DNA from: Acidobacteriota bacterium
Lineage (GTDB): Bacteria > Acidobacteriota > Terriglobia > Acidiferrales > UBA7541
Reading direction: 5' to 3'
Assembly (NCBI GenBank): GCA_003224195.1
Contig: QHYP01000110.1
Span: 1 to 46,848, forward strand
Length of the DNA stretch: 46,848 bases
The position numbers were made by a program, and so were the translations under genes. Positions 44,236 to 46,848 of the stretch are shown here, one piece after another. Positions within the stretch are counted from its first letter, which is position 1, and every line of letters begins with the position of its first letter. The notes below the pieces were generated by a model. It did not search any database and was not told the DNA's origin. It saw only the letters and a program-made list of their open reading frames with translations.

Positions 44236-44613
44236 GTGATCGTCGGACTGGGTTTGGACATTGCGGAAGTGGAGCGGGTGCGGGCTGCGATTGAGCGGCA
44301 CGGGCCCCCGTTTGTGCGGCGAGTGTACACTGCCGCCGAGGCAGCGTACTGCGAGGGATTTCGCAACAAATACGAGCGGTACGCCGGGCGGTTCGCGGCG
44401 AAAGAGGCGACGATGAAGGCGCTCGGGACCGGCTGGCGGAGCGGCATTCGCTGGCAGGACATCGAAGTGGTGCGCGAGCCGAGCGGGCGGCCGACGCTGG
44501 CGCTGAGCGGCGCGGCACGCGCGCTGGCGGACAAGCTCGGCGTGAAACGCATCTCTCTCTCGATCACGCACACGGCTCAACAGGCGCTCGCACAGGTCAT
44601 CTTCGAGACGTAA
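44236..44613 (+). CDS. acpS: Holo-ACP synthase
   Basis: GTG start with GGAG SD; IVGLGLDI, AGRFAAKEA.MKALGTG, SG.P, LSITH. Confidence 0.93.
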   Translation: MIVGLGLDIAEVERVRAAIERHGPPFVRRVYTAAEAAYCEGFRNKYERYAGRFAAKEATMKALGTGWRSGIRWQDIEVVREPSGRPTLALSGAARALADKLGVKRISLSITHTAQQALAQVIFET

Positions 44614-46067
44614 GCCGCAAGACTTTCTTCCGATACAGGATCCGCGAGCAGGCGATTTTCTTCCCTGCCAGTCACGCGCACATCAAGCCAAGCGTTTGGC
44701 GGAAATGAGCCATCGACGCGGACGCGCAGATAGTGGCTCGAAAGCGCGTCGGTGGTTTTCGCGGCGATTTCCGCTGCGGTGTGCAGAGTCAAAACGCGCA
44801 TCTTCTTTCCCACTTGGGCGTTGAGAAATTCAGCGGATTTCTTGGCGGCAAGAGCGCGAAGTTCGTGGGCGCGGCGGCGGACGATCGCGGGCGCGACCTG
44901 GCTGGAGAGATTTGCAGCGGCGGTGCCGGGGCGCTCGGAAAACGAGAACACGTGAAGATAGGTGAACGGAAGCCGGGCGATGAAGTCGAGCGTGGCGGCG
45001 TGGTCTTGCTCGGTTTCGCCGGGAAAGCCGGCAATGACGTCGGCACCGATGGCGGCGTACGGCAACAGCTCACCGATCAGCTCGACTCGCCGGGCATAGT
45101 GCTCGGCGCGATACCAGCGGTGCATTGCGGCGAGGGTGCGGTCCGAGCCAGATTGCAGAGGGATGTGAAAATGCTGCGCGACGCGGCCAGTGGCGGCGAA
45201 GAGATCGACCAGGTCGCGGGTGACGTCCATGGGTTCGATGGAGCTGACGCGGAGACGTTCGATGGAGGTTTCGTCGAGGATGCGCTTCAGCAGATCGACA
45301 AATTCGACGCGCGGGGTGAGATCGCGGCCCCAGGCGCCGAGATTGATCCCGCTCAGGACGATTTCGCGCGCGCCGGCGGCGAGGAGAGCGCGGATTTCGC
45401 GGAGAACATCGTTTGGCGGGAGGCTGCGGCTGCGTCCGCGCACGAAAGGGATCACGCAGTACGAGCAGCGGTTGTTGCAACCGTCCTGAATCTTGAGGAT
45501 GGGCCGCGTATGGCCCGCAGCGATGCTATCGAGGCCGGCATCGTCGCCGGAAACGGGAGCGGAGAAGATGTCCGCTTGTTCAAAAATATTGCCGGTGAGG
45601 ATTTTGGCGGGGCCGCGCGCGAGAGACATCTCCACGTGTGACCGCGACCTGGTCGGGGCCAACGGCTGGGCATCGAATACGGTTAAGGGAACCAATGCGG
45701 ATGACTGCGGCGAAGTGGAGCGCTGCGCGGCCAGCTCGCCAAAGAGGCGAGGAATTTCCGGCTTGTGGGAATTGCCGACGACCCAGTCCACGCCGGGAAG
45801 GGCGGCGAGTTCTTCCGGGGCGCGCTGGGCATAACAGCCCGTGACCAGGATACGGGCGGCGGGATTGCGGCGGTGAATTGCGCGGATGGCTTCGCGGGCC
45901 TGGGCGTCGGCGGCGGCGGTGACTGTGCAGGTGTTCACAACGACGACATCGGCGGCGGCTGAGCCGGGTGCAGGAGCGGCGCCGCGTTCGCGGAGTTGGC
46001 GCTCGATGGCGGCGGCGTCAGCCTGGGTGGCGCGGCAGCCGAACTGTTCGATGTAAAAGGTGGCCAT
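44577..46067 (-). CDS. mtaB: tRNA t6A37 methylthiotransferase (MtaB)
   Basis: FGCRA.Q.D, VNTCTVT, VTGCYAQ, RPILKIQDGCNNRCSYCVIP.VRG.SRS, SSIEP, HFHIPLQSG, GFPGET, HVFSFS.RPGT. The 3' end overlaps acpS by 37 nt. Confidence 0.9.
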   Translation of the reverse strand: MATFYIEQFGCRATQADAAAIERQLRERGAAPAPGSAAADVVVVNTCTVTAAADAQAREAIRAIHRRNPAARILVTGCYAQRAPEELAALPGVDWVVGNSHKPEIPRLFGELAAQRSTSPQSSALVPLTVFDAQPLAPTRSRSHVEMSLARGPAKILTGNIFEQADIFSAPVSGDDAGLDSIAAGHTRPILKIQDGCNNRCSYCVIPFVRGRSRSLPPNDVLREIRALLAAGAREIVLSGINLGAWGRDLTPRVEFVDLLKRILDETSIERLRVSSIEPMDVTRDLVDLFAATGRVAQHFHIPLQSGSDRTLAAMHRWYRAEHYARRVELIGELLPYAAIGADVIAGFPGETEQDHAATLDFIARLPFTYLHVFSFSERPGTAAANLSSQVAPAIVRRRAHELRALAAKKSAEFLNAQVGKKMRVLTLHTAAEIAAKTTDALSSHYLRVRVDGSFPPNAWLDVRVTGREENRLLADPVSEESLAAYVSKMTCASAC

Positions 46068-46660
46068 CGCTAGCGAAAGTTGTCTTTGGAAGCTCCCAGA
46101 ATACTCGGCCATGCGGGTGTTCGCAAAGGCAGTACGGAGTGGAGGCGGAAGGTTGAAATGCCAAAGGTCCCAGGGTCGAAGAGTCTCGCAGGCTTGAATC
46201 TAGTCGCTGCGACTTGGAAAGACGCCCCTCGGCGCTGGACTTCTCGCGGTCCGCATCCCCGTCTGGATGCGGAGAAAAGTACCCCCTACCCCCACCCCGG
46301 GTGTTTTTCGCAAAGAGTGCAGGAGTGCTTGAAAACAAAGGCGTTGACATTTTGAGGCGTGCAAAAGAGTGCGCAAGTGTATGAGCCGAAAGGGGTCAGA
46401 TAGGGAACGTGAGTAGGGGTCTGATTCTCCAGGAGTTAGGCAGTTGAGAAGTCCGCCGAGGCCCACCGGACTGCCGAAACCGGAGATACCTATGGGTTCG
46501 GCAAGCTCACCACAGGTCCTTGCGGGATAGTAAGAGAGATCCCTCGGCTCCCTTCGGTCGCTCGGGATTCGCATCCTCGTCGGATGCTCAATTGTCAAAG
46601 AGCAGATGCTCCGGGCTTGCCGGAAGGAGGCATTCCTGCAAATGCTTAACCGATTTATGT
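46068..46660 (-). other. Long structured non-coding leader with boxA and REP-like hairpins
   Basis: No credible CDS. Contains TGCTCTTTGACAA (46604-46592), repeated GCATCC..GGATGC hairpins and REP-like palindromes. Confidence 0.5.
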
Positions 46661-46665
46661 TAGGA

Positions 46666-46694
46666 ATGTTAACACAGAAGTACAGATATGTCAA
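46666..46694 (-). promoter_or_regulatory. Near-consensus sigma70 promoter with extended -10
   Basis: TTGACA-N17-TAACAT with TG one base upstream of the -10 hexamer. Confidence 0.65.
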
Positions 46695-46848
46695 ACGATA
46701 TTTCTATGTGCTTGAGGAGCAAAGGGATACGCGGGAATCGCGGCGAGGCGGTTCAGAGGAGCGGTGAAGCAGGGCCCATCGTAGCACAGGAAATACTCAG
46801 ATGGTAAGGCCCTGCCTAGTTGCTCTTAGGGACGGCTTGGGGAAAATG

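What the first reader, a model, noticed from the sequence alone, without database searches (positions are those of the whole stretch)
46068..46807. rRNA-operon-style promoters plus hairpin/boxA leader driving a roughly 600-nt non-coding RNA into mtaB, with no rRNA
Seen on the minus strand: (1) a weaker promoter-like site TTACCA-N18-TACGAT with TG extension and a GC-rich discriminator GGGCCC (46807-46778); (2) about 112 bp downstream, TTGACA-N17-TAACAT (46694-46666); (3) a hairpin TCCGG-CAAGC-CCGGA (46624-46610) followed closely by TGCTCTTTGACAA (46604-46592); (4) about 520 nt of hairpin-rich non-coding sequence before the mtaB ATG. Known: TGCTCTTTAACA is the NusB/NusE boxA consensus, and tandem promoters plus boxB-boxA is the layout of rrn leaders. 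Non-rRNA boxA sites are described for the suhB leader and for CRISPR leaders. Inference: this may be an undescribed Nus-antiterminated long ncRNA or repeated element that either works on its own or puts a tRNA-modification gene under stable-RNA-like control. This is my best candidate for a novel system.
Basis: partly seen in the sequence, partly recalled or inferred. Interest (0 to 1): 0.75.

Follow-up and report, generated by a model that had tools for sequence, protein, structure and literature searches.

The report
Dispersed origin-like repeats in soil Acidobacteria
The stretch is not a leader built for the neighbouring tRNA-modifying gene but one copy of a repeat (promoter, short-unit array, G-run) scattered at dozens of sites in some soil Acidobacteria, and in one complete chromosome strand bias flips at nearly every copy tested, so these repeats likely act as local starting points for DNA copying or exchange.

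Summary
The motifs are real but the stretch is not an mtaB leader. The promoter-hairpin-boxA head occurs 10 times in this genome, 8 facing a convergent gene; the boxA equals the genome's own rrn boxA; none of 29 mtaB orthologue loci has it. The head is one variant of an oriented module (DnaA-box-like edge, sigma70 promoter, REP-like inserts, array of GTAAG-N16-18-CTTAC units, A-tract, G5-6(A/T)G4-7 run with a sharp right edge) found at tens of copies per genome in part of the Terriglobia, together with a multicopy C3H zinc-finger gene. BoxA heads arose in several unrelated lineages but are rare. The module often borders low-GC, strain-variable cargo (here an Rhs tip/immunity pair), and strains swap arrays between sites. 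In complete chromosome G364 GC skew flips from negative to positive at 22 of 23 copies, an origin-like signature; it is only partial in G073 and this genome, and this copy is not at a flip. The RNA is not structured beyond shuffles; two metatranscriptome contigs hint at transcription. No Rfam match, no paper in 10 searches, no earlier scan finding of it. Best reading: a selfish, transcription-assisted initiation site for DNA synthesis/recombination (0.45).

The parts
46838..46846 (-). Degenerate DnaA-box-like site (TTTTCCCCA) at the left edge; paralogues carry TTTTCCACA or ATTTCCACA here
   Evidence: box consensus recalled
46778..46807 (-). Weak upstream promoter-like site (8/12 plus TG); among the 10 heads seen only here and in C152
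46666..46694 (-). Conserved sigma70 promoter TTGACA-17-TAACAT of the module
46610..46624 (-). GC hairpin before boxA (boxB position); one pair with compensatory change among 11 copies; stability not above shuffles
46592..46603 (-). boxA GCTCTTTGACAA, identical to the genome's rrn boxA
46505..46590 (-). REP-like hairpin inserts, shared with other sites (59 nt identical on C316); optional part of the module
46309..46438 (-). Array of degenerate 25-27-bp units (family consensus GTAA(G/C)TCCTTT-N-CAC(T)CTTAC), C-rich on the sense strand (C 36%, G 14%)
46363..46384 (-). 22-nt direct repeat at which the window lacks 136 nt present in L263, L295, L301 (collapsed assembly or deletion allele)
46282..46308 (-). 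A-tract plus G-run (GGGGTGGGGGTAGGGGG): the sharp right edge of the family
46220..46281 (-). Second REP-like insert after the G-run, shared with C36, C202, C223
46098..46126 (-). Candidate proximal mtaB promoter TTGCGA-17-TATTCT (8/12, below the scan threshold; read by eye)
   Evidence: unchanged in the 95%-identical strain allele
44577..46067 (-). mtaB, the core gene that happens to follow this copy

Best explanation
The stretch is one copy of a dispersed, oriented repeat module that likely works as a selfish, transcription-assisted starting point for DNA synthesis and recombination, and mtaB is likely only its neighbour. Shown: the repeated anatomy, the fixed G-run edge, the swapping of arrays and cargo between sites and strains, the co-occurrence with a small zinc-finger gene, and the strand bias around copies. 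Inferred: RNA polymerase starts at the conserved promoter and crosses the untranslated C-rich array (in boxA variants Nus factors would keep Rho off); at the G-run the RNA would stall or stay hybridised (R-loop or hybrid G-quadruplex); DnaA boxes and the array (bound by IHF/HU or by the zinc-finger protein) would load the helicase or expose a break; synthesis would then run outward, always upstream and, from 0 to about 5 kb past the G-run, downstream. Repeated firing would leave the saw-tooth GC skew, and free ends in a 25-60-copy repeat would drive ectopic conversion and anchor foreign genes on the promoter side.
For: Multi-copy, neighbour-independent. Promoter on the sense strand within 600 nt upstream in 38 of 58 ends in three other genomes, against 6 on the opposite strand, 2 downstream and about 8 in shuffles. 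Homology between copies ends at the G-run (median 0 to +4 nt) in five genomes, left edge variable. G364: skew switch positive at 22 of 23 copies (mean 0.106; random points 0.007, 50% positive); genes pointing away from a copy have four-fold GC skew +0.10 (n=130), toward -0.17 (n=127), p 4e-18; 5 of 6 negative-to-positive peaks in about 420 kb lie 0.3-4 kb from a copy, 0 of 4 opposite peaks within 10 kb. G073 and G000: sense strand C-rich upstream and for about 3 kb downstream whichever way genes point. Ectopic swap: the array at the mtaB site in L288 is 98% identical to G000 C152, which has another downstream gene. Upstream flanks lower in GC (0.547 against 0.604) and strain-variable (3 of 6 shared downstream sites have different upstream DNA, 0 of 7 the reverse). 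Zinc-finger gene and repeat co-occur in family f1 (12 of 13 against 0 of 8). G-run resembles mitochondrial CSB II G5AG7 (PMC4176368, passages).
Against: This copy is not at a skew flip: the flip in the window lies about 19 kb downstream with no module there, and 6 of 6 interior flips in long G000 contigs lack array units and G-runs. The switch is positive at only 14 of 20 copies in G073 (p 0.12) and 11 of 15 in G000. T/A skew runs opposite to the usual leading-strand pattern. A simple RNA-primed fork would make the first kilobases downstream G-rich; in G000, G073 and G372 they are C-rich. All five genomes tested keep dnaA. No skew control from a repeat-free relative was obtained. DnaA boxes were found at only 7 of 58 ends, strict boxA at 0 of 58; several copies have a terminator-like hairpin soon after the promoter (seen by eye). 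IHF consensus is enriched only about 4-fold (44 against 10.6) and has no 1-mismatch match in this copy. The protein has no catalytic signature or fold match. Only about half of G000 copies show low-GC cargo. Kin are not independent in the co-occurrence count.
Confidence: 0.45

Rival explanations
1. End of a one-ended (rolling-circle or HUH-type) mobile unit: the G-run is the fixed end, cargo is captured on the other side, and the strand bias reflects insertion into, or transfer of, one strand rather than initiation of replication.
For: Sharp right edge and variable left edge; cargo on one side; sense strand C-rich on both near flanks in G000 and G073; G-run followed directly by the DnaA-box edge in several copies; a RAYT-like ORF beside L002 (recognised from memory).
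Against: No integrase or HUH hit and 2 transposases among 142 flanking ORFs, 2 IS transposases and one possible HTH transposase among 65 cargo ORFs; no shared left junction; does not explain G-rich downstream flanks in G364 (21 of 23 at 7-10 kb).
Confidence: 0.22
2. A family of trans-acting ncRNA genes: the 120-490-nt RNA, ended at the G-run and Nus-protected in some lineages, titrates a protein (the zinc-finger product, as in type III toxin-antitoxin layouts) or pairs with ribosome-binding sites through its repeated CUCCUUU, which echoes the 16S 3' tail.
For: Conserved promoter and boxA; boxA heads without detectable mutual similarity in G000, G521, G126/G084, G112, G109; the only 2 RNA contigs on 19.9 kb fall between promoter and G-run; 16S tail ACCTCCTTT; zinc-finger ORF 45-110 nt after the G-run in many loci.
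Against: No folding above shuffles; units occur inverted and with variable spacing, and half-sites also lie upstream of -35; content is swapped freely; does not explain the skew; the RNA run was chosen with this stretch, depth 2, strand unknown.
Confidence: 0.17
3. Passive DNA-binding platforms or decayed copies of an autoregulated zinc-finger gene (operator arrays, DnaA/IHF sinks like datA), with boxA picked up by chance.
For: Dyad-shaped units, DnaA boxes, three HU/IHF genes; pseudogenised ORF copies.
Against: Promoter and boxA conserved above spacers in gene-less copies; genome-specific recent expansions; skew signature.
Confidence: 0.11
4. One reading: an rrn-type leader that puts mtaB under stable-RNA control.
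For: Co-directional here; boxA intact; a boxA head precedes mtaB in both allele types seen, so read-through is possible.
Against: 8 of 10 boxA copies are convergent; 0 of 29 orthologue loci carry it; own promoter candidate; RNA contigs do not reach mtaB (absence of cover is weak).
Confidence: 0.05

Closest known systems
rrn leader (boxB-boxA, NusB/NusE antitermination); boxA of CRISPR leaders, suhB and parE-like genes
   Same: Strong sigma70 promoter, hairpin, then the genome's own boxA 42-62 nt after -10, before untranslated C-rich RNA. Non-rRNA boxA: PMC13753749 and 10.1101/091223 (passages); CRISPR case seen only as cited in PMC7862264.
   Different: No rRNA, CRISPR array or nearby start codon follows; no similarity to the rrn leader outside boxA; multi-copy; boxA optional in the family.
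Bacterial oriC, datA/DARS and ColE1-type or R-loop (oriK) origins (recalled); mitochondrial CSB II
   Same: DnaA-box-like sites, IHF-like sites, a promoter firing into a G-run, and a negative-to-positive GC-skew flip in G364.
   Different: Tens of copies per chromosome, 0-2 DnaA boxes per copy, not beside dnaA, polar anatomy, atypical T/A skew, flip displaced or absent in two genomes.
REP/BIME mosaics, including CGTC REPs (PMC3733652, passages) and IHF-binding RIB/BIME-1 (recalled)
   Same: Intergenic, multi-copy, mosaic, contains REP-like hairpins and IHF-like sites.
   Different: Own conserved promoter, non-palindromic array, fixed G-run edge, associated zinc-finger gene; the REP-like parts are optional inserts.
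IS91/ISCR one-ended rolling-circle elements and MITEs (recalled)
   Same: One precise end, one variable end, cargo on the variable side.
   Different: No transposase in or regularly beside the module, no terminal inverted repeats or target duplication seen.
Type III toxin-antitoxin loci and 'cuckoo' sRNAs (recalled)
   Same: Promoter, repeat array, possible stop signal, small ORF; anti-SD-like words.
   Different: Units degenerate and in both orientations, no Rfam match, protein unrelated in Pfam/PHROGs/PDB searches, most copies gene-less.

Membership tests
rrn leader | boxA identical to host rrn boxA after a hairpin, close to a sigma70 promoter | tested here: met
rrn leader | 16S rRNA or tRNA follows | tested here: not met
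   the 16S is on C162
Nus-antiterminated non-coding RNA | NusB and Rho encoded | tested here: met
Nus-antiterminated non-coding RNA | NusB binds and boxA prevents Rho termination | not testable with these tools
   needs ChIP or reporter
Structured long ncRNA | Folding above shuffles, covariation, conserved length | tested here: not met
   z +0.96 and -0.09; one compensatory pair; no Rfam hit; promoter-to-end length 121-491
cis-leader of mtaB | Conserved upstream of orthologues and co-directional in paralogues | tested here: not met
   0 of 29 orthologue loci; 2 of 10 co-directional
Replication origin | Negative-to-positive GC-skew flip independent of gene direction | tested here: inconclusive
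   met in G364 (22 of 23), partial in G073 (14 of 20) and G000 (11 of 15), not at this copy
Replication origin | Cluster of DnaA boxes with an unwinding element | tested here: not met
   0-2 boxes per copy, 7 of 58 ends with any
Replication origin | Initiation shown by marker frequency or plasmid rescue | not testable with these tools
   only contigs were served
REP/BIME | Built only of short palindromes and linkers, no promoter of its own | tested here: not met
   promoter in 38 of 58; array not palindromic RNA hairpins
IS/MITE or rolling-circle transposon | Transposase in cis or regularly adjacent | tested here: not met
IS/MITE or rolling-circle transposon | Precise empty site, target duplication | tested here: inconclusive
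   no truly empty allele among 49 metagenome loci, which were selected by the filled pattern
Phage cos/pac plus small terminase | Relatives in phages next to a large terminase | tested here: inconclusive
   no match in IMG/VR for protein or end motif, none significant in phage or plasmid records; pattern-based searches miss distant relatives
KOPS | G-rich word polarised by replichore | tested here: not met
   both strands interspersed along G364 and G073

The most novel reading that the evidence does not exclude
Some soil Acidobacteria replicate their single chromosome from dozens of dispersed, selfishly spreading, transcription-activated origins, this repeat being the origin, the zinc-finger protein its initiator or regulator, and boxA a repeatedly acquired way to let the priming RNA escape Rho; the same sites are the entry points for accessory genes.
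Probability: 0.25. Interest if true: 0.97.

Novelty: categorically new. Interest (0 to 1): 0.8.

Why it matters
Bacterial chromosomes are taken to replicate from one origin (PMC2804667, passages). A repeat family whose copies mark skew flips every few tens to hundreds of kilobases would make multi-origin or recombination-dependent replication in bacteria directly testable, and could explain the 'lack of strand bias' noted for another acidobacterium (PMC3174227, passages; that genome was not examined here). Even if origins are wrong, it is an undescribed, abundant module that borders toxin, immunity and defence cargo in a dominant soil lineage, comes with a 2000-cluster unknown protein family, and adds a class of non-rRNA boxA sites that arose more than once.

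Tried and rejected
Rfam and ARAGORN: nothing. Mis-assembled or captured rrn leader: no similarity beyond boxA, and the same locus recurs in other assemblies. Tyrosine-recombinase or dif-like sites: spacing varies (N16-18) and cores differ within one array; no integrase nearby. KOPS: no replichore polarity. Terminase/cos: no phage matches; folds gave no hit at E below 0.001 and best Z 6.5 on generic helices; DUF5763/WRC likeness is sub-threshold. Fused forms of the protein: none seen, weak searches. Array half-site at left junctions of cargo: one case at the Rhs islet, not systematic, 91 of 146 half-sites have no G-run near. Inversions between copies as cause of the skew flips: would give both signs, G364 gives 22 of 23 one sign. 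Oligomer strand tests as a control for a repeat-free genome: too few matches, uninformative. The DnaA box at the window's own flip (26930) lies inside an efp-like ORF, treated as chance. G017 and G131 boxA matches lie in ORFs and were dropped. No complex prediction was run. The Stringer 2020 paper was not held and was not read.

Full report
Setting. The window is the whole contig C219 of a 3.84-Mb, 87%-complete assembly; related records are titled Candidatus Acidiferrum. There is no Rfam or tRNA match.

The head is repeated. BLAST gave 37 hits in the genome. The block promoter - about 60 nt - hairpin - boxA occurs on 10 contigs; the true rrn leader has the same 12-nt boxA about 150 nt before 16S but no other similarity. 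Hexamers and boxA are conserved above the spacers. Eight of the 10 face a convergent gene (frames picked by a codon heuristic and by eye). Of the 29 best mtaB orthologue loci (of 49 hits), 23 have a divergent glycosyltransferase 111-330 nt away and none has boxA or this promoter. So the module is not an mtaB leader.

The whole module. After boxA come optional REP-like hairpins, an array of 25-27-bp units (48 regex hits in 35 clusters, 0 in one shuffle; frequency matrix), an A-tract and a G-run. Other copies have different heads without boxA. The end motif reaches 4 or more matches in 3 of 201 phylum genomes, 12-57 per genome in five family members (controls 3-9), up to 63 in another family, on both strands. 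In 58 of 60 fetched ends that could be parsed, a promoter lies upstream on the same strand in 38, strict boxA in 0. Homology between copies stops at the G-run. BoxA plus array is rare: G000, G521 (6 matches) and G109 among 351 family genomes, and G126, G084, G112 among 120 genus genomes; these heads do not resemble each other before boxA except within a lineage, so boxA was probably acquired several times (inference).

The associated gene. Some copies precede, or contain, a 130-250-aa ORF with a C-x9-C-x11-C-x2-H finger and three helices: 838 homologues, 2046 clusters at 50%, no Pfam, PHROG or fold assignment. Among 42 loci, 35 have a G motif, 33 a promoter, 19 a DnaA box and none boxA upstream; they fall into 18 downstream contexts of 41. 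It is found in 11 of 19 family genomes, weakly in 8 of 19 of a second family, in 1 of 1 of a third and in 0 of 111 others, at 1-13 copies, some with stops, and co-occurs with the repeat (kin not independent).

Cargo and swapping. A metagenome scan gave 49 loci. Three show this same site with 136 extra nt (672 against 536 nt from boxA to ATG, the latter from coordinates), matching loose ends in four runs, so the window is collapsed or a deletion allele. Upstream lies the end of contig C262, an Rhs gene, and the tip/immunity pair differs between strains. A 95%-identical strain carries at this site the array that G000 has at C152. Upstream flanks are lower in GC in the boxA set and in four other genomes (10 of 12, 16 of 20, 16 of 20, 15 of 19; the nearest windows may include the module's own AT-rich head, but 7-kb profiles in G364 agree). 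Cargo in G364 includes Rhs, toxin-antitoxin, AAA and endonuclease genes and IS elements; downstream neighbours are unrelated core genes.

Expression. One RNA run among 20 listed gives two 151-nt contigs, both between promoter and G-run and nowhere else on 19.9 kb that a DNA run of the same study covers in 30 of 30 bins. The run was found with this stretch, depth is 2 and strand unknown: a hint only. The RNA folds like shuffles.

Strand bias, unexpected. In G364 (one contig, 100% complete) skew is saw-toothed and flips from negative to positive at copies whichever way they point: 22 of 23 copies examined (of about 30 pattern sites), against 50% of random points; it holds at four-fold sites for genes on either strand, and 5 of 6 unbiased peaks sit at copies. 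In G073 (20 of about 50 sites examined) and G000 the upstream half holds (sense strand C-rich), but the first 3 kb downstream are also C-rich and the bias fades at 3-6 kb. This copy fits the upstream half (C262 side) but the window's flip is about 19 kb away, and 6 interior flips in G000 have no module. T/A skew has the unusual sign. No repeat-free control genome could be profiled.

Mechanism. Shown: anatomy, copy number, polarity, swapping, co-occurrence, skew. Inferred: transcription to the G-run, Nus protection, R-loop or hybrid G-quadruplex (by likeness to CSB II, PMC4176368), protein binding, initiation of synthesis or breakage. I give 0.45 to a transcription-assisted initiation/recombination module, 0.22 to a one-ended mobile unit, 0.17 to trans-acting RNAs, 0.11 to passive sites, 0.05 to mtaB control; true multi-origin replication 0.25.

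Literature. Ten searches found no description of this family; the library lacks most subscription journals. Passages only were read of PMC13753749, 10.1101/091223, PMC3733652, PMC4176368, PMC7862264, PMC3174227 and PMC2804667. Consensus motifs for IHF, DnaA and RHS, and the comparisons with oriC, datA, ColE1, ISCR, BIME and type III toxin-antitoxin systems, are recalled. Five look-ups in earlier scan findings showed no report of this module.

Noticed in passing
window 46363-46384: Assembly lacks 136 nt of array present in L263, L295, L301 and implied by loose ends in four runs.
   Followed up: yes
G000:C262:11400-16541 and L263, L273, L282, L288, L301 upstream flanks: Rhs gene with strain-variable tip and immunity genes (DUF4329-like, SMI1/KNR4, others) directly upstream of this copy; C152 has an ankyrin gene in the same position.
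   Followed up: partly
G000:C162 about 35985 and L043: The rrn promoters also have DnaA-box-like sites 20-30 nt before -35, in G000 in the opposite orientation to the repeat heads.
   Followed up: no
G000:C283:1-600: Promoter plus GTTCTTTGACAA 195 nt before a contig end, unlike the C162 leader: possibly a second rrn or other stable-RNA leader; L293 shows a boxA module upstream of the other end of this contig.
   Followed up: no
window 1-46848: GC skew changes sign within the contig (flip near 27 kb, at efp) and in other long contigs on a 10-30 kb scale; adjacent opposite genes share the DNA-strand bias.
   Followed up: partly
G000:C149:7472-8933: A DNA methylase and a likely restriction gene sit where relatives have mtaB, next to the glycosyltransferase.
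   Followed up: no
L189, L197, L201, L203, L227, L233: Non-boxA copies carry a GC hairpin plus U-tract 20-40 nt after the promoter, like an early terminator or a REP.
   Followed up: no
L002:2419-2940: RAYT-like (Y1) transposase ORF upstream of a zinc-finger-bearing copy; recognised from memory, not scanned.
   Followed up: no
L190 (G073:C2 about 1.799 Mb): A copy sits between ilvN- and ilvC-like genes, inside a likely operon.
   Followed up: no
G463: 63 end motifs, the highest count seen, in a different family; not examined.
   Followed up: no
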